The notes under the pieces: generated by a model | Database searches by the model: none | What the model was told of the DNA's origin: nothing | The model's input: only the letters and a program-made list of their open reading frames with translations | Translations under genes and position numbers: made by a program | From: a virus | Length of the DNA: 64,000 nucleotides | Direction: 5' to 3' (one strand) | IMG/VR virus record: IMGVR_UViG_3300049169_000021 | Coordinates: 1 to 64,000 of that record | Part shown: in pieces, positions 13,492-53,266 of the stretch | How the letters are laid out: each line of letters starts with the position of its first letter | Position numbering within the stretch: the stretch's first letter is position 1

Positions 13492-13713
13492 CTACCGGTG
13501 CCGGCGCGAACCGGTAGCGGGGGCTTGGGCAGTCTGGGGCGGGGTCTGCTTCCACTCGGTGTGGGCGTAGCGGTCCTTGTGGTCGCCCGAGTGGCCGGGC
13601 TCCCACGTGCAGCGGCCCCTCTGGTGCGGGTTACGCACCCAGCAGTACCCGGCCGCCCGACCGGCCCGGAGGTCGTCGCTCCGCTGAGTGCGGTCCTGCT
13701 GTTTGTCGGTCAC
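13492..13713 (-). CDS. Small Cys/His protein
   Basis: CWVRNPHQRGRCTWEPGHSGDH; GGAG RBS. Confidence 0.65.
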   Translation of the reverse strand: MTDKQQDRTQRSDDLRAGRAAGYCWVRNPHQRGRCTWEPGHSGDHKDRYAHTEWKQTPPQTAQAPATGSRRHR

Positions 13714-14347
13714 CGGCTCTGCTCCTTTGGGGTTCGGGTGGGTTGTCGGCGTCAGGTCCGATGGGCGTGACGCGTGCGTTGAAGAGCCCGCCGCCGGCCA
13801 CAGGGGCGCAACCGGCGGCGGCCCCGGGCCGCCCTCGGGGGGTGGCGGCCGTCATCCCGCCACGGGCCCTGTCCGGCTCGTGGCGGAAGCTGCCTGCGAC
13901 AGGGTGTGCAGGGCCTTGGCTTCCGGGCAGTACTCGTGCGACCGGCAGCGGGGGCATGTGCGTGTGTGGAGCCGGTGCACGCGGTCGGCCTCGCGGCGGG
14001 TGCAGGGGTGGCAGGCGCGTGGTTCCCAGCGGCGCAGGGTGCCCTCGTGGGTGCTGAGCCGCGGGCCGAGGGCGACAGGTGCCGGGTCGCTGCACCAGAC
14101 GCAGGCGGCGCCGCTCGTCTGGGCCGCTGTGAGGGCGGCGTGGCGGGGTACGGCGAGCATCGCGTGCGGGTCGGCGAAGTCGGGGGTCATTGGGCCGGCC
14201 GCTCGTCGTGCGGGACCAGGCGGTACTTCTCGCGGCACGGCGGGCAGGCTGCCGTCGCTACGCCCCCTGGTCGCGGGTCGAGTACGTAGATCACCCGGCT
14301 GTCCTCGGCGGGCCCGCCGTGGTAGCTGCAGTAGCCGTAGGCGGTGG
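13545..14347. repeat. Direct repeat copy 1 (~800 bp)
   Basis: Matches 52409-53211; six mismatches in the first ~110 bp, then appears identical by eye. Confidence 0.95.
13852..14190 (-). CDS. Zn-finger-like hypothetical protein
   Basis: CVWC...CHPC...H..TCPRC...YC. Confidence 0.75.
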   Translation of the reverse strand: MTPDFADPHAMLAVPRHAALTAAQTSGAACVWCSDPAPVALGPRLSTHEGTLRRWEPRACHPCTRREADRVHRLHTRTCPRCRSHEYCPEAKALHTLSQAASATSRTGPVAG

Positions 14348-14372
14348 GGGTCTTCACGGTGTCTGTGGTCAT
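14187..14372 (-). CDS. Small Zn-finger-like protein
   Basis: YCSYH...ACPPCRE. Confidence 0.75.
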   Translation of the reverse strand: MTTDTVKTPTAYGYCSYHGGPAEDSRVIYVLDPRPGGVATAACPPCREKYRLVPHDERPAQ

Positions 14373-14382
14373 CTGCTGTCCC

Positions 14383-14634
14383 TCATGCCGTGGTCGTCGG
14401 TGGTGACTTGGGGGCCGTGACTCCAGCCCACACGCGGAGCTGGCCAGTGCCGTCGCTGCTGCCCCAGAAGTCCGCCGACTGCACGACCTCAAGCAGTGCT
14501 TGCATCGTGTTCTGGTCGGCGGGCGCTGGGACGGATACGCGCAGATGGTTCGGGTACTCCCTGATCTCTGCGGCGCACCCGGTGACGCGCTCCATGTCGG
14601 CGCGCAGTACGACGGCGCGCAGGCGGGCAGGCAT
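14383..14634 (-). CDS. Hypothetical protein divergent from GntR
   Basis: 83-aa ORF heading the Cys-rich operon. Confidence 0.6.
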   Translation of the reverse strand: MPARLRAVVLRADMERVTGCAAEIREYPNHLRVSVPAPADQNTMQALLEVVQSADFWGSSDGTGQLRVWAGVTAPKSPPTTTA

Positions 14635-14649
14635 GACGAAACCCCCGAG

Positions 14650-14716
14650 ACTCTGTGAGGTGAGTCCAACTCATCTCGAAGAGTAGCGCTGAACCTCGTA
14701 CTCTGTCAGGTGCGTC
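14650..14716. promoter_or_regulatory. Operator-like repeats between GntR and the divergent operon
   Basis: ACTCTGTGAGGTGAGTC and ACTCTGTCAGGTGCGTC direct repeats plus an imperfect inverted copy. Confidence 0.55.
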
Positions 14717-14739
14717 ACACCCGAACCACAGGAGGCCTC

Positions 14740-15489
14740 GTGGCAGCCCCGGCGCCCTACCTCGACATCGCCGAGGCCCTACGCGAACGGATCAGCGCAC
14801 TCCCAGCGGGAGCGAAGCTGCCGTCGGTTGCAGAGCTGGGCCGCGAGTTCAACGTCTCGCCGTCCGTCTGCGCCCGCGCGTACTCCGTCCTCGTCCAGGA
14901 CGGCCTTGTCATCTCCCGGCACGGCGCCGGCCACTACGTGCGCGGCGACGAGACGCCGCAGCTGCTGGTGCGCCGCCACCGACGCCGTTCGGAGGATTCG
15001 CCCTTTGCGCAGGGCGCGGCCGAGCAGGGCAGCGCCGGCACATGGCGGCACGAGTCCGTCACCGCGGCCGCCGACACGCGCACGGCCGAGCGGCTGGATA
15101 TCGCCGAAGGCGACCCTGTGATGCGCACCGAGTACGTCTACCTGGCCGACAGTCATCCGGTGCAACTGGCGACATCGTGGGAGCCGATGGCGGTCACGGG
15201 ACAGTCGATGATCGTGCTTCCAGAAGCAGGCCCGTATGCGGGCGTTGGTGTGGCTGCGCGCATGCGCGTGATTGGCATCGAGGTCGGCGAGCCCGTTGAA
15301 CGAGTGCGGGCGCGCGCGACGACCCGGGCGGAGGCCCAGCAGCTCGGCGTGAACCCGGCGGCGCCCGTGCTCGCGATCGAGCGGACCTACTACGACCAGG
15401 GCACCGGGCGGCCCGTGGAGACCGCCGACATCGTGATGCGCGGCGACCGCTGGGTGGCGGTCTACGGGCAGGAGCCCGCCGGGAGCTGA
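14740..15489 (+). CDS. GntR/HutC-family regulator (wHTH + UTRA)
   Basis: KLPSVAELGREFNVS...RAY...G.GHYV; UTRA-type C-terminus; GGAGG RBS. Confidence 0.9.
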   Translation: MAAPAPYLDIAEALRERISALPAGAKLPSVAELGREFNVSPSVCARAYSVLVQDGLVISRHGAGHYVRGDETPQLLVRRHRRRSEDSPFAQGAAEQGSAGTWRHESVTAAADTRTAERLDIAEGDPVMRTEYVYLADSHPVQLATSWEPMAVTGQSMIVLPEAGPYAGVGVAARMRVIGIEVGEPVERVRARATTRAEAQQLGVNPAAPVLAIERTYYDQGTGRPVETADIVMRGDRWVAVYGQEPAGS

Positions 15490-15507
15490 CTCCGGGCATG
15501 ACGAAAT

Positions 15508-15544
15508 GCCCCCTGCACAGCCCGCGTTGGGCCGTGCAGGGGGC
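15508..15544. terminator. Bidirectional terminator between GntR and lysis genes
   Basis: GCCCCCTGCAC...GTGCAGGGGGC between convergent genes. Confidence 0.75.
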
Positions 15545-15551: not shown

Positions 15552-15815
15552 TCAGCGGGCGAAGAGGGCAATGGCGCCGGTGGCCGCGCCCGCCACACCG
15601 GCGAGGACGCCGATCGTGGGCATCGGCCAGCGGGCGCGCTCGAGGGTGCGAATCCTGAGCTCGTGGTCCTGGAGATCGCCGCGGATGTCCTTGGTCTCCT
15701 GAACGAAGTTGTCCACCTTCGATTCGATGCGGCCGACCGCCTGAGCCAGGTCCCTCACCTCCTGATACATCTGGGCCGTACTGATGTACACCCCGGGGTC
15801 CGGTGCGCTCGTCAC
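15552..15815 (-). CDS. Lysis-cassette coiled-coil protein with C-terminal TM
   Basis: DHELRIRTLERARWP + TM; homolog at 56284. Confidence 0.75.
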   Translation of the reverse strand: MTSAPDPGVYISTAQMYQEVRDLAQAVGRIESKVDNFVQETKDIRGDLQDHELRIRTLERARWPMPTIGVLAGVAGAATGAIALFAR

Positions 15816-15997
15816 GCCTCGGCCTTCTGGTCTCTGTTGGGCACCGCCCAGGTGAAGCCGAGCGCGGCGAGGACGGCGATCAGCGCCGCCCAGCCCTCGG
15901 CAGCGGTCACGGTGTCGTCGGTGACGGCGACGGACAGGGATCCGGCGCCCGCGGCCACGGCGGACACGGCCGCCTTCGCGTACTTGGTGATCTTCAT
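15812..15997 (-). CDS. Putative holin
   Basis: MKITKYAKA..., two TM segments, follows endolysin. Confidence 0.75.
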   Translation of the reverse strand: MKITKYAKAAVSAVAAGAGSLSVAVTDDTVTAAEGWAALIAVLAALGFTWAVPNRDQKAEA

Positions 15998-16014
15998 GGA
16001 TCGTTCCTTCCGGT

Positions 16015-16941
16015 TCAGGCGGCGACGGTGAACCCGTACTTGACGCCGAGCTTGGTGAGGCTGGTCTTGCCGGGGATGCCGTCGGCCGCGCTGCCGGAGT
16101 AGCCGAGGCGGCGCTGCCACTTGGCGTAGGCGTCGACGGTGGCTGTGCCGAAGTGGCCGTCGCTGTAGACCTTGGCGAGGAGTCCAGCGTCGACCAGGGC
16201 GGTCTCGACGATGCGCACGCCTGCGTAGGTGACCGGCGTGCCTGACGCCTTCGGGTTGGAGCGGGCAGCGGCGACCAGCCTGGACAGGTCCACGACCGGC
16301 CGCTTCGGCTTCGGCAGCGCGGGCGCAGCGGGCTTCGGGGCGGGCTTGCTGTCGTCGAGCCGCTTCGCGATCCGGGCACGCATGGACGCCATGGTGAAGC
16401 CGCGCGGGTCGACCTTCCCGGGCTGCCACTCCAGGTGCCCGATCACGGACCGCTCGGTCCAGCCGTGGTGCCGGCAGATCGCTGCGGCCGCCTTCTCGAT
16501 CGCCTCCAGCTGGGCCTCGGGCCACGGGTCTTCGCCGTCGCCGAGGTTCTCGCACTCGAAGCCGTAGAAGTGCCGGTTGCCGTCGGTGTTGGCCTCGTTG
16601 TCCGGCGGCAGCGCCTTCTCGGCGATGACGGCGCGCAGGACGTCGTCGTCGCCGAGGCCGGCGTGATTCGCTCGGCCGTAGCCGACCAGGTGGACACGGC
16701 CGTCCTTGGTGATGACGCCGTGGCACAGCGGGCCGGGCAACTCGGTGTAGCCGTCGCGGCAGATGGCCACCGTGCGGGCGCTGCCCTTGGTGACGGTGTG
16801 GTGGATCATCACGCCGTGCACGGGACCCCAGGGGCCCTTGGTGTTGCGGTTGTGGTCTTCCCAGTCGCCGACCTCGACGACGACCAGGCCCTCGTCGCGT
16901 AGCCGGTCCAGGAACGTGGGGGGCGCCATCGGTGTGGCCAT
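16015..16941 (-). CDS. Endolysin: N-acetylmuramoyl-L-alanine amidase + PG-binding domain
   Basis: IHHT...HAG...GFECEN...IGHLEW...K.DP; DGHFG..T...WQ..LG...ADGIPG. Confidence 0.9.
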   Translation of the reverse strand: MATPMAPPTFLDRLRDEGLVVVEVGDWEDHNRNTKGPWGPVHGVMIHHTVTKGSARTVAICRDGYTELPGPLCHGVITKDGRVHLVGYGRANHAGLGDDDVLRAVIAEKALPPDNEANTDGNRHFYGFECENLGDGEDPWPEAQLEAIEKAAAAICRHHGWTERSVIGHLEWQPGKVDPRGFTMASMRARIAKRLDDSKPAPKPAAPALPKPKRPVVDLSRLVAAARSNPKASGTPVTYAGVRIVETALVDAGLLAKVYSDGHFGTATVDAYAKWQRRLGYSGSAADGIPGKTSLTKLGVKYGFTVAA

Positions 16942-17008
16942 GCGGGCCTCCAGGCATGAGAGAAGCCCCGGGCCGGGCGGCGCGGGGCGAACGGGGTGGC
17001 GGGGCGTC

Positions 17009-17524
17009 TCAGGCGATGCGTTCGACGCGCATGTACGAGCGGCCGGCCACACGCGTGGTACCGGCATTGGAGGTGGTCTGCGCCCACTGCAGCGCGAGGA
17101 CTCCGGCGGACGAGGTGTTGACGTCGCCGGTCTCCCACGCCATCACCTGGCTGGAGCCGTTGCGGGTGCCGTAGCTGGTTTCGGTGGCGAAGGCGTGGAC
17201 ACCCCAGCGGCCGTCGCCCGTGGGGTTGGTGGTGTTGGTGGGGGCGGTGTCGACGCCCCAGCAGGCCCGCAGGCCCGCCGCTCCTGGCGGCACCGACCAG
17301 GCCGTTTTGAAACCGGCGGCAGCCGTTGAGCTGTAGTGGATGTAGAAGGCCACGTGGTAGCTGGCGTTGGCCTCCAGGGCGATCTGCAGGTCGGGGTCGT
17401 CGGTGAGGGTGGTGGTGTTGCTGCGGGTGGTCTCGCTCTCCTTGATGACGTCGAAGGGGAGCATCGACATCAGCAGGTCGTCGGTGACGAACATCCCCGG
17501 AAGGATGAGGGGGTATTGGGGCAC
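17009..17524 (-). CDS. Minor tail protein
   Basis: After the large tail gene; strong homolog at 57891. Confidence 0.8.
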   Translation of the reverse strand: MPQYPLILPGMFVTDDLLMSMLPFDVIKESETTRSNTTTLTDDPDLQIALEANASYHVAFYIHYSSTAAAGFKTAWSVPPGAAGLRACWGVDTAPTNTTNPTGDGRWGVHAFATETSYGTRNGSSQVMAWETGDVNTSSAGVLALQWAQTTSNAGTTRVAGRSYMRVERIA

Positions 17525-17533
17525 GCTGCCTCC

Positions 17534-20500
17534 TTACAGGGCGACCGGGGCGGGGTGGGCTGCGCGTACCTCGGCCCCCGCGGGGTGGGCCTTGGTGACG
17601 TTGTTGATCGACCGCAGGACGGTCATCCGCTGCGGCGTGACGAGACGCAGGTTGTCGAACCGCAGCTGCGGGCTGACGGCGGTGCTGCCCGTGTTGGCGA
17701 AGCTGCGGGTGCCGAGGTTGTCGGCGGCGGTCAGGTCGGAGTCGGTGGCCTCCATGTGCCACACGCTCGGCTCTGTGCTGGAGGCCAGCCACACCTTGGC
17801 CGCCAGCGAGCTGCCCTGCACCCGGAACCGGACCCGGTAGAACGTTCCGGCGAGGTGGGTGAACGGGCTGGTGTAGGTCGTCGCCAGCTGGGACTCGGCG
17901 CCCAGCCGCTTCCGTAGGGTGAGCAGGATGGTGGCCGCCGTGGTGAACTCCAGCCTCGCCATGTACCAGCTGGTGTTGCCGGTGGCGCGGACGATCGGGC
18001 CCGCGAACAGCGACGCTCCCGACGCCAGCACCGACGTGGCGACGTCGACGTACAGGTCGACGTCCGGGCCGGGCGCCGCAACCTGGGTGATGTGCGCGAT
18101 GCCCGTCGTCGGCTGGGCGACCTGCCCGTATCCGGAGCCGACGCTGAAGTCGGCGGTGTTCCCGACGAGGGACCACGTCTGCCCGGTGTCCGCCGCCCCC
18201 CAGGCGCCCGCGACGGTCCGCCCGAACGTGTCGAGGACGGCGGGGGTGTTGGCGGTGGCGCGGACGACTTCGCCGCCCAGGCGCAGGTCGAGGGGGAAGC
18301 CGCGCGCGTACTCGCCTGTGGCGCCGCTGCCGAGGAACACCACGGCGGCGAGCAGCACATGCGAGGCGGGCGGGGTGGCGCCGAGGGTGGGCAACACCCG
18401 GGCGGTCGCCGCACCCACCGGGGCGGTGAAGCCGCCCGTGTACTTCGTCCACTCGTTCGCCACGACCGTGTGGTTGATGTTGCTGGTGGACAGGTAGGTG
18501 CCGCCCGCGTCGTACCAGTTGACGTTCAGATCCACGCCCCGGGCCACGTTGCAGCGCAGCCACCCATACGGGTGGTAGGTGGTTCCCGCGACGACCGGCA
18601 CCGCCCCGGACGAGGCATAGGCCAGGGTCGCGATCCCGTTGGGGGTGATCTGCATGCACCACTGGCCGCCGAACGGCGCGGGCCGCGGCGTGGGCACCCG
18701 CGCGAGCGTCGAGCCGGTGGCCGTCCACCCGGACAGGTCCGTCTCGAAGTCGGGGTTGGTGCTGAGCCGGTCCAGCGACGTGATCCACGGGCGGGGCGCC
18801 TGCGGGCTCGACAGCGGTGTGTGCACCAGCAGCTGGGTGTCGGCAGCCCCGGCGGCCACGGTGAGGGCGGAGCGGCCCGGGCTGGTGTCCACGCGGCCGC
18901 GCTCGCCGTCGCCCACGCGCGCGACCTGCCACGGCTGGCCCGGGCTGCAGTTGAACGTGACCTCCCAGCGCTGCAGGCCGGCCTCGTGGCGGATGCCTTC
19001 GACCATCAGGTCGACGTCGCCGAAGCCGACGAATTTGGGCAGGCCGGTGATGCGGATCAGGTCGCCCTCGCGCAGCGCCAGGACGGCCGGGATCAGGTTC
19101 GGTGCCTTGTGCAGCAGGACCTTGACCTGCGGGTAGCGGGGCCCGTCGAAGGTGCCCAGGTTCAGGCGCCAGTAGGCGATCGGCTCGGTCTGGTCGTCGT
19201 GGTGCAGGGACAGAGTCACGCTGTCGTCGTAGAGGCCGATCCCGTCGGGCGGGTCCTGCACCGACAGCGGGCCTTCCTCGAGGAACGCCCGCCCCTCGCT
19301 GCCGCCGTCGCGGTGGACGGTGCGGTCGTTGCGGGTGGCGGTGTCGTCGTCGACGGGATCCAAAGGTGTGGCCAGGGCCGTCGGGGCGCTGTAGGCCAGG
19401 GTCAGCCCCGGTTCCTGGCTGTACATGCTGGAGCGCTCCCGGTACACCAGCCCGGGCCGGGTCTGGTCTTCCAGGAGCAGGCCGCCGTCGGCGTCCGCGG
19501 CGGCCTGCAGCAGCGTCAGCAGCGTGTCCGGGGTCTGCGCGCCGACCAGCTCCGGCGTCTCGGGGCCGGGGATGCGGGCAAGCGGCAGGTTCTCCTCGGA
19601 GGCCAGGCGCCGCAGCCGCTCCCACGCGGTCTCCCCGGTCCAGGCGTCGATGGCCCGGTCATAGGCGGCGGTGTCGGCGGTCGGCCACACCGAGATGTGC
19701 CCGATGGCCATGCCGTTGAGGTCGGCGGAGAACCCGTTGGGGGGCGAGGCGACGGCGGTCGGCCGGCCTACGGTGCCCGCGACCGAGGCGTTGAAGCTGC
19801 CGGCGTCGCCGCCGACATCGGTCCACACGATCGACCAGTCGATGTTCCCGCCGTTCTGCGTGACGGCGAACTTCACCCGCACCCACTGCCCGAACAGGTC
19901 CAGGCCGGTGGCGATGCCCTGGCTGACCAGCGTGGTGCCGTCGGCGTCGCGGCCCAGGATGGTCGAGCCGTCCGTGCCCGACTGGATGTACCACTCGGCG
20001 ATCGTGCCGGTGGCCAGGATCCGCATGAACGTGCGCCGGACCGCGGGGCCGGTGTCGATGCGGTACACCCACTGCACATGCCAGGCGGTCAGCGCGGCGC
20101 CGGGGGCCGGGACGCGGCCCGACATCAGCGACGGTGACCCGGTGGCGGGCTGGATGACGGGCAGCGGCCCGGAACTGGCCAGCGAATCGGCTTCCGCCCA
20201 GGCCGCCGAGGACAGCGAGAGCGCAGCGACGCCAGCGACGGGACTCGACGCCTGAGTGGCGGACTTGCCTTCCTCCATCGGCCAGTACGCGAGCGGATCG
20301 AAGCTCGGGATGCGGCGGCGCAGGGTGGACTGCAGGGCCTTCTTGCCCTGCCCCATGCGGCGCAGGATGCCGGCGCCCTCGATGGACACCCACGCGTCCG
20401 AGCTGTCGGGGCGCCAGCTCTGCGGCCACTCGGGCACCTCGACGACGATGAGGTCCTCGCGGTCACGGATGGCGGCCGTCCCGGACAGCGTCCAGGTGAG

Positions 20501-21340
20501 TCCCGCACCGTCCACGAACGAGGTAGTGCCCGCCGTCTGGGCGGAGAAGTCCGGGCTCGCGACGACTACGCCGTCGATGCCGTTGCGGACCTCGGCCTTG
20601 TCCACGCGGCCGGCCATGGCGATGCGGGGCGGCGTGGAGTCCGTCTGGCTGGGGGCGATGGTCAGCGGGGCGGTGCTGACGAAGATGCCCCCGGTGAGCG
20701 GGCTGGTGATCGTGACGACGTCGCCGAACTGGGTCCACGGACCGGCCAGGCTCTGGGCCCAGTAGAAGCGGACGAACTCGCCGCCCTGCAGGGTGGCGCG
20801 CACGGCGGCCCGGCGGGGCAGCACGGGCAGCGTCCAGAACGGGGCAGGCCCGACGATGCCGTCGCGCCCGAGGTGCATGACGAGAGTGCCGTTGTCCAGG
20901 CGCAGGTGGTACGAGCGCTGTCCAGCGTCGCCCCACTTGCCGATGAGGACGTGCGTGCCGGGCCCGTACCAGTTGGGCTCGCCCTCCCAGCGCAGGTCAA
21001 GGTCGCCGGTGATGTCCAGCGCGGCCGTGTCCGGGGTGGAGGCGTTGTTGGCTGCGTTGCCGTCCAGTTCCAGGTAGGAGACGGTGCCGGGCACGGACAG
21101 CCGGCCACGGGAGTTGCGGCCGATCAGCCCGAACAGATCCGACTCGGGGTTACGGGGGCTGAAGCGGCCGTCACGGTTGTTGATCGTGATCTGCAGGCTG
21201 CCCGGGTCGGTCTGCGATCCCATGTCCGGGCGGCCGTGCTCGACGACGATGTTGCCGCGCTCATAGGTCGGCACGGGGATCCACACCCCGCCGGCGAGCA
21301 GCTCGAAACGGGCGTCCAGCGGGGTGTCAGGGAACGCCAC
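17534..21340 (-). CDS. Large minor tail / receptor-binding protein with LamG-like and CBM-like modules
   Basis: 1268 aa after tape measure; PLAYWPMEEG; NPDFETDLSGW CBM-like segment. Confidence 0.85.
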   Translation of the reverse strand: MAFPDTPLDARFELLAGGVWIPVPTYERGNIVVEHGRPDMGSQTDPGSLQITINNRDGRFSPRNPESDLFGLIGRNSRGRLSVPGTVSYLELDGNAANNASTPDTAALDITGDLDLRWEGEPNWYGPGTHVLIGKWGDAGQRSYHLRLDNGTLVMHLGRDGIVGPAPFWTLPVLPRRAAVRATLQGGEFVRFYWAQSLAGPWTQFGDVVTITSPLTGGIFVSTAPLTIAPSQTDSTPPRIAMAGRVDKAEVRNGIDGVVVASPDFSAQTAGTTSFVDGAGLTWTLSGTAAIRDREDLIVVEVPEWPQSWRPDSSDAWVSIEGAGILRRMGQGKKALQSTLRRRIPSFDPLAYWPMEEGKSATQASSPVAGVAALSLSSAAWAEADSLASSGPLPVIQPATGSPSLMSGRVPAPGAALTAWHVQWVYRIDTGPAVRRTFMRILATGTIAEWYIQSGTDGSTILGRDADGTTLVSQGIATGLDLFGQWVRVKFAVTQNGGNIDWSIVWTDVGGDAGSFNASVAGTVGRPTAVASPPNGFSADLNGMAIGHISVWPTADTAAYDRAIDAWTGETAWERLRRLASEENLPLARIPGPETPELVGAQTPDTLLTLLQAAADADGGLLLEDQTRPGLVYRERSSMYSQEPGLTLAYSAPTALATPLDPVDDDTATRNDRTVHRDGGSEGRAFLEEGPLSVQDPPDGIGLYDDSVTLSLHHDDQTEPIAYWRLNLGTFDGPRYPQVKVLLHKAPNLIPAVLALREGDLIRITGLPKFVGFGDVDLMVEGIRHEAGLQRWEVTFNCSPGQPWQVARVGDGERGRVDTSPGRSALTVAAGAADTQLLVHTPLSSPQAPRPWITSLDRLSTNPDFETDLSGWTATGSTLARVPTPRPAPFGGQWCMQITPNGIATLAYASSGAVPVVAGTTYHPYGWLRCNVARGVDLNVNWYDAGGTYLSTSNINHTVVANEWTKYTGGFTAPVGAATARVLPTLGATPPASHVLLAAVVFLGSGATGEYARGFPLDLRLGGEVVRATANTPAVLDTFGRTVAGAWGAADTGQTWSLVGNTADFSVGSGYGQVAQPTTGIAHITQVAAPGPDVDLYVDVATSVLASGASLFAGPIVRATGNTSWYMARLEFTTAATILLTLRKRLGAESQLATTYTSPFTHLAGTFYRVRFRVQGSSLAAKVWLASSTEPSVWHMEATDSDLTAADNLGTRSFANTGSTAVSPQLRFDNLRLVTPQRMTVLRSINNVTKAHPAGAEVRAAHPAPVAL

Positions 21341-21351
21341 CAGGGGCCTCC

Positions 21352-23496: not shown

Positions 23497-23532
23497 AGGC
23501 CATCACCCCCTTTCAGACGGGACGCCAGTCCC

Positions 23533-23889
23533 CTATGGAGTTGTGGTGTTGAAGCCGCCGCCGAGGGCGGCGTTCGCCATCTGCGCCTGCCGGAACAGTT
23601 CTTCCGGGGTCTTGCGGACCTTGGCCCGGTCCCAGCGCGGCATGAAGTCGGCCACTGTCGGGGCGCGTTGGCCCTTGCCGCGGTTCGCCGCGGCGATCAC
23701 GGAGGCGATCAGCGCGGCCTGGACGTCGCCGCGCGCACCGCCCAGGGGGCCGGTGAGCTTCTCGTATGCCTGCCACTCAGTGAGCTCGGCGGAGCCCATG
23801 TCGGCGAGCATGTGACGCACTGAACGGGCGCCGAGGTGCGCGGCCAGGCGGTAGTAGAACTGCCGCTCTGGCCGCGCTCTCAGTTTCCC
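23533..23889 (-). CDS. Tail assembly chaperone, -1 frameshift extension
   Basis: RPERQFYYRLAAHLG...ELTEWQAYE in the -1 frame after GGGAAAC. Confidence 0.8.
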   Translation of the reverse strand, partial: GKLRARPERQFYYRLAAHLGARSVRHMLADMGSAELTEWQAYEKLTGPLGGARGDVQAALIASVIAAANRGKGQRAPTVADFMPRWDRAKVRKTPEELFRQAQMANAALGGGFNTTTP

Positions 23890-24245: not shown

Positions 24246-24246
24246 G

Positions 24247-24669: not shown

Positions 24670-24682
24670 GGGCCTGTCTCCT

Positions 24683-25648: not shown

Positions 25649-25651
25649 GGG

Positions 25652-25978: not shown

Positions 25979-25987
25979 GGTGATCTC

Positions 25988-26326: not shown

Positions 26327-26339
26327 AGGGCCACCCCCT

Positions 26340-42394: not shown

Positions 42395-42452
42395 GGGTTC
42401 CTCCGTGGTGTGATGGGTGGAGGGCCGGGCCTGGTAGCAACAGGCCCGGCCG

Positions 42453-44063: not shown

Positions 44064-44089
44064 GGGGCACCTCGATTCGGTGGTGGAGG

Positions 44090-44375
44090 GGGAGTGGTAC
44101 GCGCTGCGTACCGGCTGCGTACCGGCTGCGTACCGGGGTAAAAGCGGCTCTGACCTGCTCTTATGTATCTCTCTAGAGCCAGTGGTACGCAGGTACGCAG
44201 AAACACAGAGGGGTCGATGTGTGCGCACACGCACGCACGCACACGCGCACGCGCCCACGCCTGAGGGGTGCCATTTCCGGGCGACTGCGTACCGCCCCGA
44301 AAGCGGCCGTTTACATGCCGCTGACCTGCGGCGATTCGGTCGCCGCGGTGGTACGCAGTCGGTGCGTACCACCGC
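44090..44375. other. Putative replication origin with CTGCGTACC iterons
   Basis: About nine copies on both strands, three at 11-bp period; AT-richer segment; between primase and helicase genes. Confidence 0.7.
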
Positions 44376-44386
44376 CGTTGCGGCGC

Positions 44387-47227: not shown

Positions 47228-47457
47228 CGCTTCTCCCCGTGGTACGCGGCCAGGTGCTGGCCCTTGATCTCGGCGACGAACGCCTGAACCGCGGCCGATC
47301 CGACTACCGGTCCTTCGCGGCGCTGGGGGCAGCCGGGGCGGTAGCACTCGTAGCGAGCGCGGACGTTGTCGGTGTCGATGACCAACAGGCCGTCGAGCTG
47401 CTGGGGGATGGGGGTGCGGGCCGGCGTGTCCCGGGCCCGCGCGGTCGAGGTGGTCAC
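47224..47457 (-). CDS. Small Zn-binding protein
   Basis: YECYRPGC...H...H. Confidence 0.65.
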   Translation of the reverse strand: MTTSTARARDTPARTPIPQQLDGLLVIDTDNVRARYECYRPGCPQRREGPVVGSAAVQAFVAEIKGQHLAAYHGEKR

Positions 47458-47936
47458 TTCGCCGCCTGGTTGGTGCGGGCGTGCCAGGTGTCGACGTCCT
47501 CGACGTGGCCGGCCTTCACGGACGCCTGGAAGTCGACGGCGCGCTGCGCGTCTTCCTGGCGTCGGGCGATCTCTTCGCGCAGCTGGAGGAGAGAGGCGGC
47601 TGGGTCCTGCTTCGGGGGGAGGATGGCGAGCCCCTCGCCGTCGGCGGTCCAGATGATGACCGCGTGGGGCAACTGCTCTTCGTCGGAGGCCCGGGATTCG
47701 TGCAGCTTGATCTGCTGCTGGGCGGCGTACTGCCGCAGGTTCTCGCGCGCGAAGAGGCGGCGAACCCAGGTGAAAACGACCTCCGGCGCCCCGGTGATTC
47801 GGATGAGGTCTCCGATGGCATCGAGGCATTCGGTGACGTCCCGGTCGGCGAGCAGCTTGGCGGCCTCGATGGCGGCCAGGGCACGGGCGGCCTCGGGCGT
47901 GGTGGTCGTCGTTGCGACCGTGGGAAGCTCAGCCAT
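47454..47936 (-). CDS. Phage hypothetical protein
   Basis: MAELPTV..., coupled. Confidence 0.7.
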   Translation of the reverse strand: MAELPTVATTTTTPEAARALAAIEAAKLLADRDVTECLDAIGDLIRITGAPEVVFTWVRRLFARENLRQYAAQQQIKLHESRASDEEQLPHAVIIWTADGEGLAILPPKQDPAASLLQLREEIARRQEDAQRAVDFQASVKAGHVEDVDTWHARTNQAAK

Positions 47937-47950
47937 GAGCGGACCCCGTT

Positions 47951-48274
47951 CTACTTGCTGGCGCGGGTGGATTCGGACTGCTCGGACGGCGCCTCCGGCT
48001 GGACCCCGGGGGCGCCGTTGCTGCTGGTGGCTGCTGCCGACTGGACCTCGGCAGCAGCGATCGGGGGGAGGCCGAGGAAGGTGAGCAGGTCGACCTTCCG
48101 CACGCGCAGGGCGCGGCCGAACTCGACGACCTCGATGGGGAATCCGCCCTCGCGGATCAGCTTGTATCCGGTCCCTTCGGAGACGTTCAGGGCGGCGAAC
48201 GCGTCCTTTACGGGCGGCATGGCCGGGAGGCCCATGACCTGCTCGGGCGTCAGCGCCTCGATCTTGGCGCTCAT
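47951..48274 (-). CDS. Excisionase-like DNA-binding protein
   Basis: AFAALNVSEGTGYKLIREGGFP...GRALRVRKVDL. Confidence 0.8.
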   Translation of the reverse strand: MSAKIEALTPEQVMGLPAMPPVKDAFAALNVSEGTGYKLIREGGFPIEVVEFGRALRVRKVDLLTFLGLPPIAAAEVQSAAATSSNGAPGVQPEAPSEQSESTRASK

Positions 48275-48570
48275 GAGGCCTCCCTCTGCGCCTGGAGCGG
48301 GACGACCGCACGGCCCGCCCGCTCCATCGGTATGAACAACACCAGGAGGTCGACGCCGAGCGCGGCGACGATTGCCTTGGCCTTGTCCTCGGGCACGCTC
48401 CGCTGAGCGCCGGACATGAGGGCGCCGATGGTCCCGTTGGCCACGCCAGCGGCGGCGGCCAGTTCGCGGCTGGTGATGGACTCACCGGTGCCGGTGCGCT
48501 CCATGAGGAGCTTGAGTCGGTCGCCGCTGACGACCGCGTACTTCGTGGGTGGACTTTCGTTCACGTTCAC
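48271..48570 (-). CDS. Cro-like XRE regulator
   Basis: TSRELAAAAGVANGTIGALMSG. Confidence 0.8.
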   Translation of the reverse strand: MNVNESPPTKYAVVSGDRLKLLMERTGTGESITSRELAAAAGVANGTIGALMSGAQRSVPEDKAKAIVAALGVDLLVLFIPMERAGRAVVPLQAQREAS

Positions 48571-48573
48571 CTC

Positions 48574-48736
48574 GCTGGACACTTTGTCCCATGAGTGGGA
48601 CGGCGATGAACGGAGCATCACACAGGCTGAACGCTTTGTCCAGCGAGTGTGACAGACTTAGGGTTGCTTAAGTAATCGGTCAAAAAATCCGCGCGCCCTG
48701 GCGGGATCGTCCAACGTGCTGAACACTTCGTTCAGT
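48574..48736. promoter_or_regulatory. Three palindromic operators GCTGRAC-N5-GTYCAG
   Basis: 48574-48591, 48626-48644, 48718-48736. Confidence 0.7.
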
Positions 48737-49678: not shown

Positions 49679-51367
49679 ATGCCGTCAGCACGCCGTGCAG
49701 GAAGCATCTACCGCCGATGCGAGTGCCGCGGTGGGGACGGCAAACTGCTGGGCAACGCCTGCCCACAGCTCAAGAAGAAGTCGCACGGTTCCGTCGCACT
49801 CCGCCAGGAGCTGCCGCCGGACGCCGACGACAAGCGCCGGACCTTCCGGCGTACCGGGTACAAGTCCGTCACGGAGGCCCAGGGCGACCTCTCCCGCCTA
49901 CAGGCCATCCTCGCGCTCCCCGGTGACGACGAAGACGAACAGCGCAGGGTCGGGGATCTGCTCGCAGACATTTCGAAGCGACGCGCCGACATCCCCGAAC
50001 CATCAGAAGTACAGCGCCGCCTCGGCGTCGGCGTCCCCCTCGACGGCAAGGCCACGGTCGGCGAATGGCTCGACCGCTGGATGTCGAACAAGAAGACGCG
50101 CCCCACCACGAACAACGGCTATGCCTCCCACATTCGCGTGCACCTGAAGCCGCGCATCGGACACCTGCGCCTGGACCGGCTCGGCGTCGGGCACGTCCAG
50201 GAGATGTTCGACGCGATCGCCGACGAGAGCGACGTGATCCGGGCAGAGAACGACGCCCGACGCGAGCAGGAAGCGCGCTGCAAGTGGTCGAAGCCTGGGC
50301 GACCGCCGGCCAAGGAACGGCCGAGGCTCGCCGCCGAGCGCGCGAAACTCGCCGAGATGAAGCCATACCGGAAGACGAACACCGTGGCGACGCGGCACGC
50401 GATCCGGCGCACCCTGCGGGCCGCCCTCAACAAGGCGATCGCCGAACAATTGATCACGTTCAACGCGGCCGCCCACGTCGAACTCGGCTCCAGCGCGCGC
50501 CCCAAGGGACTGCTGTGGACCGACGAACGAGTAGCCCGCTGGCGAGAGACGGGCAAGCAGCCGTCGCCCGTCATGGTGTGGACGCCCGTCCAGCTCGGCG
50601 CATTCCTCGACGAGGCCGAGAGCAGCAGGCTGTACGCCGCCTTTCACGTCATCTCGCACCATGGCCTGCGCCGCGGCGAGGCCGTTGGCGCGGACTGGGC
50701 GAACGCGCACCTGGAGGCCGCACAGCCCCGCCTTGACGTCCTCACTGAACTCGTTGTCGACGGCTGGGAGGTCATCGAGACGGCGCCCAAGACGGACTCG
50801 TCGATGTCATCGGTGATGATCGACCGCGGGACCGTGAGGGTCCTCAAGGAGCACCGGGCCCGTCAGATGCAGGAGCGGGACGCGTGGAACGCGATGGCCG
50901 CCGCGGAACGGGCAGCGGGTAAGCAGACAGCAGACTGGACCGACACGGGCAAGATCTTCGCTGCGGAGGATGGGAGCTGGCTCCATCCTGACGTAGTCAG
51001 CAAGGAGTTCAAACGGATCGTCGAGGCCGCGGATCTGCCTCCGATCAACCTCCGGGACCTGCGCCACGGCGCGGCCGCGCTGGTGAAGGCCGGCGGCGGA
51101 GACGTGCATGACGCCAAGGTGAAGCTGCGTCACTCAACCATCACCCTGACCGCAGACACGTACCTCGAACTGTTCACGGAGTACGAGCAGGAGCTGACGG
51201 AGAAGGCGGCCGCCGCAGTGCCGCGTGCTCGCCGCGGGCGTGGAACGGCCCCCGCCCCGGACGCTGTACCGGGGCAGGGGCCGAGCGCAGCGTTGCAGCC
51301 AGCAGACGCTGAAATGGACGCTTCCACGGTACGGGCCAGCACTGACAACGACCCCTCTGCGACGTAG
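49679..51367 (+). CDS. int: Tyrosine integrase (phage B)
   Basis: HGLRRGE, APK, LRDLRH, LRH, DTY motifs. Confidence 0.95.
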   Translation: MPSARRAGSIYRRCECRGGDGKLLGNACPQLKKKSHGSVALRQELPPDADDKRRTFRRTGYKSVTEAQGDLSRLQAILALPGDDEDEQRRVGDLLADISKRRADIPEPSEVQRRLGVGVPLDGKATVGEWLDRWMSNKKTRPTTNNGYASHIRVHLKPRIGHLRLDRLGVGHVQEMFDAIADESDVIRAENDARREQEARCKWSKPGRPPAKERPRLAAERAKLAEMKPYRKTNTVATRHAIRRTLRAALNKAIAEQLITFNAAAHVELGSSARPKGLLWTDERVARWRETGKQPSPVMVWTPVQLGAFLDEAESSRLYAAFHVISHHGLRRGEAVGADWANAHLEAAQPRLDVLTELVVDGWEVIETAPKTDSSMSSVMIDRGTVRVLKEHRARQMQERDAWNAMAAAERAAGKQTADWTDTGKIFAAEDGSWLHPDVVSKEFKRIVEAADLPPINLRDLRHGAAALVKAGGGDVHDAKVKLRHSTITLTADTYLELFTEYEQELTEKAAAAVPRARRGRGTAPAPDAVPGQGPSAALQPADAEMDASTVRASTDNDPSAT

Positions 51368-51586
51368 ACTTGAGGGACAGGCAAAGGGCCTCCGACCTGC
51401 GGGTTGGGGGCCCTTACTGCTGGCCCGGTGCTGGCCCGAACGCCACGTAAGAGCGCGATACGCGGTGGGGTGAGATGGGGTGAAGGCTCGGACCGGAGGG
51501 GAGTCAAACGGCCCCTGAGCTGCACTCCGTGGGGTGCAATGGGGTGAGGCAAAGTCGACGGGTCGTAGTGTCATGGGCACTCATCA

Positions 51587-51631
51587 GACTTTTAATCCAT
51601 TGGTTGTGGGTTCGAGTCCCACACGGCCTAC
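51587..51631 (+). tRNA. 3' half of tRNA-Lys(TTT) (att core, not a full tRNA)
   Basis: CTTTTAA anticodon loop, GTGGG-TTCGAGT-CCCAC T arm, 3' acceptor strand; no D arm or 5' acceptor strand. Confidence 0.85.
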
Positions 51632-51635
51632 ATCG

Positions 51636-51670
51636 GAACCCCAGCTCAGAGCAGAACTGAGCTGGGGTTC
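51636..51670 (+). terminator. Terminator hairpin after tRNA fragment
   Basis: GAACCCCAGCTCAG...CTGAGCTGGGGTTC, 14-bp stem. Confidence 0.8.
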
Positions 51671-52086
51671 TGTCCGTTTTGGTCAGGATCCATGATCGCT
51701 AGCTGGCCCGTAGCTGGCCCGAGGGGCGGATGATCATGCTGAACGCGCGACGGCCCTCAGCTGGGTCGGGATCCCGGTTGAGGGCCGTCCAACTCCCCCC
51801 GGGGTAAAGGGGCGCGGGCGGCCGCCCCACAGGGGGACGACCGCCCTACCCCGCCTCCGGTGTCCTCTCCGGAGTCGCTCGCGAAGAGGCCTGCGAACGG
51901 CTCCAGCACCTTCGGCGGGCTCGGCAGGCCGCTCAGTGGGCTCCCCGTATGAGGGAGCGGGTCACGGCCTCGTCATGTCACTGGCGGCTGGGCGGCGGAT
52001 TCCGCGCGACTCCAGCGGGCGTCAAGATCACACAAATTAGGGTCTACCCTAATCCCTTTTGATCATGTTGTCGGGAGCGTGGACGT

Positions 52087-52323
52087 GTGTCACGTCCCAC
52101 CCCGCCCGACGAACGGGTCCTCGCCCGCCGCCGTCAGGTGGGAGAACAGATCCGCCGTGTCCGCGAGGGGCTGAACCTCACGCAGCCGGACGTTTGCGGC
52201 CGGTCCGGGATTGATATCGCCACGTACAGCCGTATCGAGCAAGGGCACTCGTCCCCGCTGTTGGACACGCTGATCCGCATCGCCGATGCGATGGACGTCG
52301 AGCTCGCTGAACTCGTGCGCTGA
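52087..52323 (+). CDS. Small XRE-family regulator
   Basis: VGEQIRRVRE...TQ...TYSRIEQG; paralog of 13034. Confidence 0.9.
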   Translation: MSRPTPPDERVLARRRQVGEQIRRVREGLNLTQPDVCGRSGIDIATYSRIEQGHSSPLLDTLIRIADAMDVELAELVR

Positions 52324-52363
52324 GCGGCCCCGGTCGGCGACGGGGGGCGCCGACCGGGGCCGC
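52324..52363. terminator. Terminator hairpin between convergent genes
   Basis: GCGGCCCCGGTCGGCG...CGCCGACCGGGGCCGC. Confidence 0.75.
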
Positions 52364-52409
52364 GGGGATGGTCACCGGTGCGATCGGCGCACCGCGCCGG
52401 TGACGGGCT

Positions 52410-52577
52410 CTACTTCCATTCGGTGTGGGCGTAGCGGTCCTTGTGGTTGCCCGAGTGGCCGGGCTCCCACGTGCAGCGGCCCCGCTGGTGCGGGTTGCGC
52501 ACCCAGCAGTACCCGGCTGCCCGACCGGCCCGGAGGTCGTCGCTCCGCTGAGTGCGGTCCTGCTGTTTGTCGGTCAC
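52410..52577 (-). CDS. Small Cys/His protein (55 aa)
   Basis: Copy of 13492-13713 ending HTEWK*. Confidence 0.65.
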   Translation of the reverse strand: MTDKQQDRTQRSDDLRAGRAAGYCWVRNPHQRGRCTWEPGHSGNHKDRYAHTEWK

Positions 52578-52715
52578 CGGCTCTGCTCCTTTGGGGTTCG
52601 GGTGGGTTGTCGGCGTCAGGTCCGATGGGCGTGACGCGTGCGTTGAAGAGCCCGCCGCCGGCCACAGGGGCGCAACCGGCGGCGGCCCCGGGCCGCCCTC
52701 GGGGGGTGGCGGCCG

Positions 52716-53054
52716 TCATCCCGCCACGGGCCCTGTCCGGCTCGTGGCGGAAGCTGCCTGCGACAGGGTGTGCAGGGCCTTGGCTTCCGGGCAGTACTCG
52801 TGCGACCGGCAGCGGGGGCATGTGCGTGTGTGGAGCCGGTGCACGCGGTCGGCCTCGCGGCGGGTGCAGGGGTGGCAGGCGCGTGGTTCCCAGCGGCGCA
52901 GGGTGCCCTCGTGGGTGCTGAGCCGCGGGCCGAGGGCGACAGGTGCCGGGTCGCTGCACCAGACGCAGGCGGCGCCGCTCGTCTGGGCCGCTGTGAGGGC
53001 GGCGTGGCGGGGTACGGCGAGCATCGCGTGCGGGTCGGCGAAGTCGGGGGTCAT
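52716..53054 (-). CDS. Zn-finger-like protein (copy of 13852-14190)
   Basis: Identical translation. Confidence 0.75.
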   Translation of the reverse strand: MTPDFADPHAMLAVPRHAALTAAQTSGAACVWCSDPAPVALGPRLSTHEGTLRRWEPRACHPCTRREADRVHRLHTRTCPRCRSHEYCPEAKALHTLSQAASATSRTGPVAG

Positions 53055-53266
53055 TGGGCCGGCCGCTCGTCGTGCGGGACCAGGCGGTACTTCTCGCGGC
53101 ACGGCGGGCAGGCTGCCGTCGCTACGCCCCCTGGTCGCGGGTCGAGTACGTAGATCACCCGGCTGTCCTCGGCGGGCCCGCCGTGGTAGCTGCAGTAGCC
53201 GTAGGCGGTGGTTGTGGTCTGTGTGCTGCTCGTGTGCTGTGTGGTCGGCTTCTCTGGCCTGGTCAT
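53051..53266 (-). CDS. Small Zn-finger-like protein
   Basis: C-terminus identical to 14187-14372, different N-terminus. Confidence 0.75.
   Translation of the reverse strand: MTRPEKPTTQHTSSTQTTTTAYGYCSYHGGPAEDSRVIYVLDPRPGGVATAACPPCREKYRLVPHDERPAQ

What the first reader, a model, noticed from the sequence alone, without database searches (positions are those of the whole stretch)
13545..53211. One phage-genome-length unit (38,864 bp) bracketed by an ~800-bp direct repeat: possible phage-phage cointegrate
Seen: 13545-14347 matches 52409-53211 (about 690 bp apparently identical), and the DNA between holds one complete phage gene set. Both integrases are followed by phage DNA rather than host DNA. 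Inference: phage B's circle may have entered phage A by homologous recombination in the shared segment, bypassing its own attB. Alternatives are a tandem polylysogen, a fusion at the 34.58-kb scar, or two induced circles misassembled through the repeat.
Basis: partly seen in the sequence, partly recalled or inferred. Interest (0 to 1): 0.75.

Follow-up and report, generated by a model that had tools for sequence, protein, structure and literature searches.

The report
Two phage genomes joined through shared repeat
One 96.9-kb soil-metagenome contig holds two complete, different Streptomyces temperate phage genomes joined through an 808-bp module they share. That is the shape of a recombination cointegrate, but a short-read assembler can draw the same shape from two separate phages, and the available data cannot tell which it is.

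Summary
The repeat is real: 13540-14347 matches 52404-53211 (808 bp, 7 mismatches in the first 115 bp, then 693 identical bp), 38,864 bp apart.

The window is the first 64 kb of a 96,862-bp IMG/VR contig with no host DNA. Related proviruses show that its two ends are neighbours in natural genomes, so the contig is a closed path of two units:
- **Phage X (38,864 bp):** integrates at tRNA-Lys, carries TraB and PrimPol.
- **Phage Y (57,998 bp):** has an unrelated integrase and a RecE/Erf recombination pair.

The X/Y joints lie in the repeat, which holds three small Cys-rich genes next to attP. They do not lie at att sites. X's attP is intact. No phage boundary lies at 34.58 kb. The tandem-lysogen and scar-fusion readings are therefore rejected.

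Whether the joined molecule exists is unresolved. The run that holds the DNA looks like short reads, and the standard JGI workflow is 2x150 bp with metaSPAdes. 693 identical bases exceed a read. A k=31 graph collapses the repeat. X and Y have about equal depth (roughly 255 and 220).

I lean to two separate co-resident phages joined by the assembler (0.55) over a real cointegrate (0.35). The scan's only other notes on this repeat are on this same contig.

The parts
1..68 (.). Perfect 30-bp-arm, 8-nt-loop palindrome exactly at the contig start. It overlaps the stop codon of gene 57-617 and is probably a terminator. It is the place where the closed path is broken.
   Evidence: fold energy -69.4 kcal/mol. 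A related contig, L004, also ends inside the equivalent spot. The Logan contig starts at 39.
57..9791 (-). Phage Y early region, second half. It continues from contig position 96,816 across the contig ends. It includes a RecE-like exonuclease (5461-6498), an Erf-like annealing protein (4668-5342) and a DNA polymerase exonuclease-like gene (3919-4671).
   Evidence: GC3 gene calls, PHROGs, and colinearity with the Y-type provirus G004 and about ten other viral contigs.
11082..12443 (+). int1, the integrase of phage Y. It has only a weak Pfam SAM-like hit. It is 68-69% identical to the integrase at the right end of provirus G004.
13034..13270 (+). XRE1, a 78-aa HTH regulator on the left flank of repeat copy 1, on the Y side.
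13540..14347 (.). Repeat copy R1. The Y arm lies on its left and the X arm on its right.
13492..14372 (-). Three small Cys-rich genes that fill the repeat: Ra1 13492-13713, Rb 13852-14190, Rc1 14187-14372. GC3 is 0.87-0.89. The Rc stop and Rb start overlap (ATGA). The right edge of the repeat lies inside Rc, giving it two different N-termini. The left edge lies at the end of Ra.
   Evidence: No PHROG hit.
14710..15489 (+). GntR/UTRA regulator, the first gene of the X arm to the right of R1.
   Evidence: Pfam.
15552..33445 (-). Phage X late region: lysis (endolysin 16015-16929), tail (17534-21340, tape measure 21352-23496), head (capsid 27185-28387, protease, portal 29204-31000), TerL1 31324-33075 and TerS1 33089-33445.
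   Evidence: with homology to annotated genes of L001 and of provirus G010.
33698..34411 (-). HNH endonuclease fused to an AAA domain, next to the terminase. The cos region is probably at 33.45-33.70 kb.
   Evidence: Pfam, sequence, and an HNH-like match in G010.
35383..48582 (-). Phage X early region: FtsK/TraB-like ATPase 35383-37503, helicase 42453-44063, PrimPol-DUF927 44387-47017.
   Evidence: Pfam. Identity to provirus G010 is 88%, 89% and 64% for these three genes. Identity to L001 is 66% for the helicase and 58% for PrimPol. Relatives L040-L043 and L053 are 81-87% identical in DNA over about 42.39-51.9 kb.
49679..51367 (+). int2, the tyrosine integrase of phage X.
   Evidence: Pfam PF00589. 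Relatives are 63-94% identical.
51419..51721 (+). Intact attP of phage X. The 37-nt core at 51587-51623 is identical to the 3' part of tRNA-Lys(TTT) from the anticodon loop onward. Paired GCTGGCCCG arm repeats lie on both sides (51419, 51430 and 51702, 51713).
   Evidence: Sequence, Rfam tRNA 27.3 bits, and comparison with attL of provirus G010 and attP of the circular L001.
52087..52323 (+). XRE2, a 78-aa HTH regulator of phage X on the left flank of repeat copy 2.
   Evidence: Pfam HTH_3. 58% identical to the L001 HTH and 78% to L059, both of which sit beside int2-like genes.
52404..53211 (.). Repeat copy R2, with genes Ra2 52410-52577, Rb 52716-53054 and Rc2 53051-53266 on the minus strand. 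The X arm lies on its left and the Y arm on its right.
53263..64000 (-). Phage Y late region, which continues beyond the window to about 77.65 kb. It holds a DUF6415-like gene 53263-53610, an XRE-TPR gene 53761-54837, endolysin 56774-57616, tail 58416-62279 and a tape-measure-like gene 62279-65035. Outside the window lie capsid, protease, portal and TerL2 (75986-77389), then the Y early region at 78-96.8 kb.
   Evidence: Colinear with provirus G004.

Best explanation
**What the sample holds.** The sample holds two different, complete temperate Streptomyces siphoviruses.
- Phage X is 38,864 bp: attP in tRNA-Lys, XRE2, the repeat R, GntR, lysis, tail, head, TerL/TerS, HNH, TraB, helicase, PrimPol, int2.
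- Phage Y is 57,998 bp: R, a DUF6415/XRE-TPR cassette, lysis, tail, head, TerL2, a long early region with a RecE/Erf pair, int1, XRE1.

**What R is.** Both phages carry the same three-gene Cys-rich module R just across attP from the integrase. 693 bp of it are identical, which points to a very recent exchange between two phages that share a host. Y's own RecE/Erf-type recombination system may have promoted that exchange (inference).

**How the contig arose (inferred, not shown).** Two circles that share one repeat form a figure of eight in an assembly graph. Y's circle is broken at a very stable hairpin. The graph then looks like a line (Y) with a loop (X) hanging on R. When loop and line have equal depth, a short-read assembler such as metaSPAdes can unroll the loop once and write Y-left, R, X, R, Y-right. 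That is what this contig is. My account of how the assembler resolves loops is from memory and is untested.

**Consequence.** Most molecules are then separate X and Y genomes with intact attP, either circular or concatemeric. The 96.9-kb record is two genomes, not one.
For: **Anatomy, shown.**
- The repeat is confirmed.
- The Y-type provirus G004 (55.8 kb, CheckV 100%) is colinear with 53.7-96.8 kb plus 1-12.4 kb. int1 is at its end, and the homologue of 96362-96610 lies next to the homologue of 1066-1566. The contig ends are therefore neighbours and the path is closed.
- The X-type provirus G010 (42.1 kb) runs tRNA-Lys, XRE, Rb-like gene, endolysin, TerL/TerS, TraB, helicase, PrimPol, int.
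- The circular 34.5-kb record L001 has the same order of genes.
- Natural genome sizes are 34-44 kb for the X type and 54-64 kb for the Y type.

**Support for an assembly join.**
- The record is a JGI/IMG contig, classed linear with no end repeat.
- The JGI workflow uses 2x150 bp Illumina reads and metaSPAdes with k up to 127.
- The run that holds 99% of the words gives Logan contigs averaging about 131 nt, which means short reads.
- 693 identical bases exceed a read. In the k=31 graph R is a single contig of depth 381, between flanks of depth 233 and 305.
- X depth is about 255 and Y about 220, the condition under which a loop is unrolled once.
- Chimeric contigs between co-existing viruses with similar regions are a known error, and metaSPAdes makes more of them than MEGAHIT (PMC5610896).
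- Neither phage could package a 96.9-kb cos-to-cos unit, so a joined form should be a minority. This last point is inference.
Against: Equal depth of X and Y is also what a physical link predicts, and two independent phages would seldom match this closely. If an assembler truly lacks linking information, it usually stops at a repeat and does not pass through it twice. At about 220x depth, a few read pairs with inserts over 700 bp could have supported the written joints. I do not know which assembler was used for this record or whether long reads existed. My account of the loop resolver comes from memory and was not tested.
Confidence: 0.55

Rival explanations
1. The cointegrate is real. X and Y, co-resident in one Streptomyces cell, underwent one reciprocal crossover in the 693-bp identical tract, through host RecA or Y's RecE/Erf pair. 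This gave a 96.9-kb circular heterodimer that is the main form in the sample, perhaps kept as an episome by X's plasmid-like replication and TraB functions.
For: The layout is exactly that of a single crossover: each repeat copy has one X arm and one Y arm, both attP sites are unused, and the path is closed. X and Y depths are equal within noise, about 255 and 220. Y encodes a RecE-like exonuclease and an Erf-like annealing protein, and Rad52-like phage recombinases drive exchange between temperate phages (PMC3945230). An X-type relative occurs as a circular 'plasmid' in a complete Streptomyces genome. The assembler did write these joints.
Against: No read or contig available here spans the repeat. 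The two cos sites would be 96.9 kb apart for either terminase, so the dimer could not be packaged and should resolve quickly through the same repeat. No other contig in IMG/VR, JGI metagenomes or GTDB genomes carries the repeat at all, joined or not. Equal depth is also the condition for the assembly artefact.
Confidence: 0.35
2. This is a tandem polylysogen: two prophages integrated side by side at one attB (tRNA-Lys) in a host chromosome, with the contig cut inside phage DNA.
For: A tRNA-Lys 3' fragment lies between two phage gene sets. An earlier first-stage note read it this way.
Against: Both arms of the site at 51.4-51.7 kb are X-type, and int2 and XRE2 are neighbours in X-type relatives and in the circular L001. 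int1 is unrelated to int2 (26% over 91 aa), and no tRNA-like core lies beside it. There is only one tRNA-Lys fragment and no host gene in the whole 96.9 kb. The contig ends are neighbours within Y's early region. The X/Y joints lie in R, about 0.8 kb from the att core.
Confidence: 0.03
3. Two phages are fused at the 34.58-kb scar, or the contig is a single 96.9-kb phage genome with two structural gene sets.
For: A truncated pair of reading frames lies at about 34.42-34.67 kb. CheckV calls the record 100% complete.
Against: Provirus G010 has TerS next to the same TraB gene (88% identical), so 34.58 kb lies inside a natural X-type arrangement. Natural relatives of each half are complete phages of 34-44 kb and 54-64 kb. 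The contig has two terminases, portals, capsids and integrases of different types.
Confidence: 0.03

Closest known systems
Campbell-type insertion of one circular replicon into another by homologous recombination. Examples are heterodimers of circular replicons and int-independent lysogeny of lambda by recombination into a resident prophage (from my own knowledge).
   Same: Two complete circles lie head to tail, the shared homology is duplicated as a direct repeat at both joints, and each copy has one arm from each parent.
   Different: Here the partners are two otherwise unrelated phages that share only 0.8 kb. No host chromosome is involved. The molecule itself has not been shown to exist.
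Mosaic module exchange between temperate phages, driven by phage Rad52-like recombinases (De Paepe et al. 2014, PMC3945230).
   Same: A short, nearly identical module sits in otherwise diverged temperate phages. Diverged homology remains at one border (7 mismatches in 115 bp). One partner encodes an Erf-like annealing protein and a RecE-like exonuclease.
   Different: That work describes completed exchanges. It does not describe two genomes written as one molecule.
Chimeric contigs in viral metagenome assemblies (Roux et al. 2017, PMC5610896).
   Same: Co-existing viruses with a highly similar region, short reads, and probably a metaSPAdes-type assembler.
   Different: This contig is a complete closed tour of both genomes and not a partial join. 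Whether it is chimeric was not proven here.
X-type relatives: NZ_CP108372.1, a 34,477-bp circular 'plasmid' of Streptomyces sp. NBC_01335, and IMGVR_UViG_2932893002_000003, a 42.1-kb provirus at tRNA-Lys.
   Same: The gene order is the same: int, attP with a tRNA-Lys core, a 78-aa HTH, small Cys-rich genes, lysis, tail, head, terminase, then replication genes. int is 63-75% identical, the helicase 66-89%, and TraB 88% in the provirus.
   Different: The terminase and head module is only distantly related or different. The cassette between the small genes and the lysis genes varies. The NBC_01335 record gave no match to TraB.
Y-type relative: IMGVR_UViG_2795386114_000002, a 55.8-kb provirus from an isolate.
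   Same: It is colinear with Y from the XRE-TPR gene to int1. The portal is 86% identical, TerL 59% and int 68%.
   Different: The small Cys-rich genes at its left end show no detectable similarity to R. It has no gene 57-617 and no hairpin.

Membership tests
Cointegrate formed by a single homologous crossover | Two complete replicons lie in head-to-tail order in one closed path. | tested here: met
   X (38,864 bp) and Y (57,998 bp) are each colinear with complete natural relatives, and the contig ends are neighbours in Y-type genomes.
Cointegrate formed by a single homologous crossover | The shared homology is present as a direct repeat at both joints, each copy flanked by one arm of each parent. 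| tested here: met
   R1 has the Y arm (int1, XRE1) on its left and the X arm (GntR, lysis 1) on its right. R2 has the X arm (int2, attP, XRE2) on its left and the Y arm on its right.
Cointegrate formed by a single homologous crossover | Single DNA molecules span the repeat with non-parental flanks. | not testable with these tools
Assembly chimera through a repeat shared between genomes | The repeat is longer than the reads, and probably longer than the insert, of the library. | tested here: inconclusive
   The identical tract is 693 bp. The run's Logan contigs average about 131 nt, so the reads are short. The JGI standard is 2x150 bp. The insert size and the assembler of this particular record are unknown.
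Assembly chimera through a repeat shared between genomes | The parental joints XRE2-R-GntR and XRE1-R-DUF6415 are the ones present in the reads. | not testable with these tools
   No raw reads were available. No other contig in three collections carries R.
Tandem polylysogen at one attB | Host DNA with attL and attR lies at the ends of the array. | tested here: not met
   There is no host gene and no full tRNA in 96,862 bp, and the contig ends are neighbours within phage Y.
Tandem polylysogen at one attB | The joint between the two prophages is an att core with arms from two different phages. | tested here: not met
   Both arms of the site at 51.4-51.7 kb are X-type, and the X/Y joints lie in R.
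Tyrosine-integrase phage with attP in the tRNA-Lys(TTT) 3' end (phage X) | An integrase with the catalytic domain, an attP core identical to the tRNA 3' part, and arm repeats on both sides. | tested here: met
   PF00589 scores 35.8 bits. The 37-nt core at 51587-51623 is identical to the tRNA-Lys of provirus G010. GCTGGCCCG pairs lie on both sides, as in the circular L001.

The most novel reading that the evidence does not exclude
The 96.9-kb heterodimer is a real, maintained episome. X would have captured phage Y by recombination in the shared module. The dimer is too large to be packaged but could spread between hyphae by TraB-mediated transfer of double-stranded DNA. In that case a conjugative phage-plasmid would carry a second phage along without virions.
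Probability: 0.08. Interest if true: 0.7.

Novelty: new member of a known kind. Interest (0 to 1): 0.3.

Why it matters
**For the catalogue.** An IMG/VR record rated 100% complete at 96.9 kb is really two phage genomes of 38.9 and 58.0 kb. This distorts genome size, clustering and host links. The case shows how a shared 0.7-kb module plus equal depth can yield a closed double genome.

**For the biology.** Two otherwise unrelated temperate Streptomyces phages share a three-gene module with 693 identical bases next to attP. That marks a very recent exchange, and so a shared host. One partner carries a RecE/Erf pair that could drive such exchange.

**If the joined molecule is real.** It would be a natural phage-phage cointegrate caught before resolution. 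That is a modest but useful example of how modules move between phages.

Tried and rejected
- **Searches for R elsewhere found nothing.** An exact 48-mer from R gave no hit in IMG/VR or JGI metagenome contigs, and a 26-mer gave none in GTDB genomes. A protein search with Rb in IMG/VR found no close relative. An exact protein look-up found R, int1 and int2 only on this one contig. So no independent assembly shows either joint.
- **Read laying could not link flanks across R.** It gave only Logan contigs. The many 'joints' listed for run X1 have sides of 20-22 nt, and I treat them as noise.
- **Runs X2-X4 are only relatives.** They hold conserved genes at 90-95% identity (the endolysin at 16.0-16.9 kb and the RecE region). 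This says nothing about habitat or about R.
- **Megablast found no close relatives.** Against phages and plasmids it found only endolysin and terminase fragments.
- **No family or RNA hits in key regions.** PHROGs gave nothing for the three R genes. Rfam gave nothing credible between int1 and R1, so Y's att core was not located.
- **Hairpin-telomere and linear-plasmid ends were considered and dropped.** The two contig ends are not inverted copies of each other, and the centre of the palindrome is not symmetric.
- **I first thought XRE1 might belong to X.** It gave a 46% hit to L001. That was an artefact of my gene list: XRE2 is the closer match, at 58%.

Full report
**1.

A self-BLAST of the window gives one strong direct repeat: 13540-14347 against 52404-53211, 808 bp, 99.13% identity, no gaps. 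The alignment shows seven mismatches, all in the first 115 bp (13544 to 13654), followed by 693 identical bases to a sharp right edge at 14347/53211. Outside both edges identity drops to about one third. The spacing is 38,864 bp. A second, weaker similarity (72% over 1.2 kb, 17013-18232 against 57895-59117) lies in tail genes.

**2. What the record is.**

- The window is the first 64 kb of a single 96,862-bp record.
- The tools identify it as an IMG/VR virus record, classed linear with no end repeat, with a CheckV completeness of 100.
- Its proteins are on file only from this one JGI/IMG contig.
- It is about 70% G+C and has no tRNA gene.
- All 115 genes I called by third-position G+C look phage-like.
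- The nearest DNA matches are Streptomyces phages and plasmids.

**3. Two complete phages.**

Nearly all genes are on the minus strand. The integrases and a few regulators are on the plus strand.

*Unit X (13540 to 52403).* Its parts, in contig order:
- R, then a GntR/UTRA regulator;
- endolysin, tail, tape measure, capsid, protease and portal;
- TerL (31324-33075), TerS (33089-33445) and an HNH-AAA protein;
- an FtsK/TraB-like ATPase, a helicase and a PrimPol-DUF927 replicase;
- a tyrosine integrase (int2), an att site and a 78-aa HTH protein (XRE2).

Three relatives show this is a natural phage type:
- The 34,477-bp circular 'plasmid' NZ_CP108372.1 of Streptomyces sp. NBC_01335 has the same gene order. 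Its integrase is 63% identical, its helicase 66%, its PrimPol 58%, its endolysin 56% and its tail protein 50%.
- An isolate provirus of 42.1 kb (G010) runs tRNA-Lys(TTT), HTH, Rb-like gene, endolysin (75%), TerL (39%), TerS, TraB (88%), helicase (89%), PrimPol (64%) and an integrase (75%) at its far end.
- Several metagenome contigs are 81-87% identical in DNA over about 42.4-51.9 kb. Beyond attP they carry an XRE2-like gene, sometimes Rb- and Rc-like genes, and then an endolysin like X's.

*Unit Y (the rest of the contig).* Its parts:
- R, a DUF6415-like gene and an XRE-TPR regulator;
- endolysin, tail, capsid, protease, portal and TerL2;
- a long early region that runs from about 96.8 kb down to 78 kb and from 9.8 kb down to 57. 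It includes a RecE-like exonuclease and an Erf-like annealing protein;
- an immunity-type regulator, int1 and XRE1.

The isolate provirus G004 (55.8 kb, CheckV 100%) is colinear with exactly this unit and has the int1 homologue (68%) at its end.

**4. The contig is a closed path.**

In G004 and about ten other related viral contigs, homologues of the genes at the contig's right end (94780-95766, 95848-96231, 96362-96610, 96610-96816) lie directly beside homologues of the genes at its left end (1066-1566, 1563-2012 and onward), in the same order and direction. The two contig ends are therefore neighbours in natural Y-type genomes. There is no overlap and no host DNA, and 38,864 + 57,998 = 96,862.

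The break sits exactly at the first base of a perfect palindrome with 30-bp arms, an 8-nt loop and a fold energy of -69.4 kcal/mol. The palindrome overlaps the stop codon of gene 57-617. The only relative that carries that gene is a contig from another metagenome, and it also ends inside the equivalent spot. I read the hairpin as a terminator that breaks short-read assemblies. I could not show why.

**5. Where the joints are.**

The att site beside int2 is an intact attP:
- A 37-nt core (51587-51623) is identical to the 3' part of the tRNA-Lys gene that bounds provirus G010.
- The 5' part is not tRNA. Rfam scores the whole at 27.3 bits, just under the threshold, with a broken D arm and anticodon stem.
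- Paired GCTGGCCCG repeats lie on both sides, as they do in the circular L001 record.

XRE2 is closer than XRE1 to the HTH proteins that sit beside int2-type integrases: 58% against 46% to L001, and 78% to L059. So int2, attP and XRE2 form one native X block.

int1 is unrelated to int2 (26% over 91 aa), and nothing tRNA-like lies beside it.

The switch between X-type and Y-type DNA therefore happens inside R at both copies, about 0.8 kb from the att core. This rules out site-specific tandem integration. It also contradicts an earlier first-stage note that read the 51.4-51.7 kb site as a hybrid joint of a double lysogen.

The '34.58-kb scar' is a pair of truncated reading frames. It lies inside a natural X-type arrangement, because G010 has TerS next to the same TraB gene.

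**6. What R is.**

R holds three small Cys-rich genes on the minus strand: Ra (55 or 73 aa), Rb (112 aa) and Rc (61 or 71 aa). Their third-position G+C is 0.85-0.91, which is typical of coding DNA here. The Rc stop and the Rb start overlap.
- The right edge of R lies inside Rc, so Rc has two different N-termini, and both frames stay open.
- The left edge lies at the end of Ra.
- PHROGs gives no hit.
- Weaker homologues of Rb, at 37-52%, sit at the same place in X-type relatives. The Y-type provirus has unrelated small Cys-rich genes there. R therefore looks native to the X lineage and recently copied into Y. This is inference.
- Seven mismatches in 115 bp followed by 693 identical bases fit the border of a recent exchange tract, as described for temperate phages with Rad52-like recombinases (PMC3945230).
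- One caution: assemblers that pop bubbles may have erased a few real differences between the two copies.

**7. Is the joined molecule real?**

Two circles that share one repeat, and a single-crossover cointegrate of them, contain the same short words. Only molecules that span 13654 to 14348 can tell them apart.
- One public run, a soil metagenome, holds 99% of the sampled words.
- Only its k=31 Logan contigs could be laid. They average about 131 nt over the whole run, so the reads are short. They tile 39-20000 without a single difference from the window, apart from the three repeat-copy mismatches noted next.
- R is one contig (13585-14335, depth 381). It carries the copy-2 letters at 13620, 13633 and 13654. 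It sits between a Y-side contig of depth 233 and an X-side contig of depth 305.
- Length-weighted depth is about 220 for Y (five contigs, range 166-250) and about 255 for X (two contigs). These are equal within noise.
- The standard JGI workflow uses 2x150 bp reads and metaSPAdes with k up to 127.
- Chimeric contigs between co-existing viruses with similar regions are a known error, and metaSPAdes makes more of them than MEGAHIT (PMC5610896).

With Y's circle broken at the hairpin, the graph is a line with a two-edge loop (R and X). As far as I recall, SPAdes resolves such loops by coverage and unrolls them once when loop and flanks have equal depth. That would write exactly this contig with no spanning read. 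This step rests on my memory of the software and is untested.

Against this reading:
- Equal depth is also what a physical link predicts.
- A few long-insert pairs at about 220x depth could have guided the path.

On the biology side:
- A 96.9-kb dimer has its like cos sites too far apart to be packaged and should resolve through the same repeat.
- Y's RecE/Erf pair would make such dimers form readily whenever both phages replicate in one cell (inference).

I put 0.55 on two separate genomes joined by the assembler, 0.35 on a cointegrate that is a major form, and the rest on other readings.

**8. Comparison with what is known, and verdict.**

The contig's shape is a Campbell-type cointegrate, and the module sharing is ordinary phage mosaicism. 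Neither is new in kind.

The finding matters in two ways. It warns that this '100% complete' record is two genomes. It also documents a very recent module exchange between two unrelated Streptomyces temperate phages.

Interest is 0.3. It would rise if long reads showed the dimer to be real and maintained.

Noticed in passing
window 1-68, and L004 10540-10565: The contig starts exactly at the first base of a perfect palindrome with 30-bp arms and an 8-nt loop (-69.4 kcal/mol). The palindrome overlaps the stop codon of gene 57-617. The only related contig with that gene, from another metagenome, also ends 7 nt after the stop. The hairpin seems to break short-read assemblies, but the cause was not shown.
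   Followed up: partly
window 10055-10160 and 12520-12545: Copies of a TAGTTAGCC-like motif lie in a cluster between the divergent regulators upstream of int1, and again just downstream of int1. They could be operator or arm-type sites of phage Y.
   Followed up: no
window 12440-12455: The Logan contigs of run X1 break right after the int1 stop codon. This is the same place where the Y-type provirus G004 ends. A branch in the graph here could mark Y's att core, with an integrated form also present in the sample.
   Followed up: no
window 34420-34670: A reading frame that starts like an HTH protein runs into the frame of a small membrane protein that lacks its own start. It looks like a deletion scar inside phage X. 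It is not a boundary between the two phages.
   Followed up: partly
window 35281-40355: The FtsK/TraB-like ATPase is 88% identical in an X-type provirus integrated at tRNA-Lys, so the transfer-type operon is native to this phage lineage.
   Followed up: partly
window 53263-54837; L053 13032-13355; L042 14123-15169; G004 618-1631: The DUF6415-like and XRE-TPR genes to the right of R2 have homologues in both X-type and Y-type relatives. The regulator cassette between the small Cys-rich genes and the lysis genes therefore moves between lineages.
   Followed up: partly
window 17013-18232 against 57895-59117, and 19131-19399 against 60022-60290: The tail genes of X and Y are 69-72% identical in DNA although their heads and terminases differ. 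This fits a shared host.
   Followed up: no
window 4668-6498: Phage Y carries a RecE-like exonuclease and an Erf-like annealing protein side by side, a complete phage recombination pair.
   Followed up: partly
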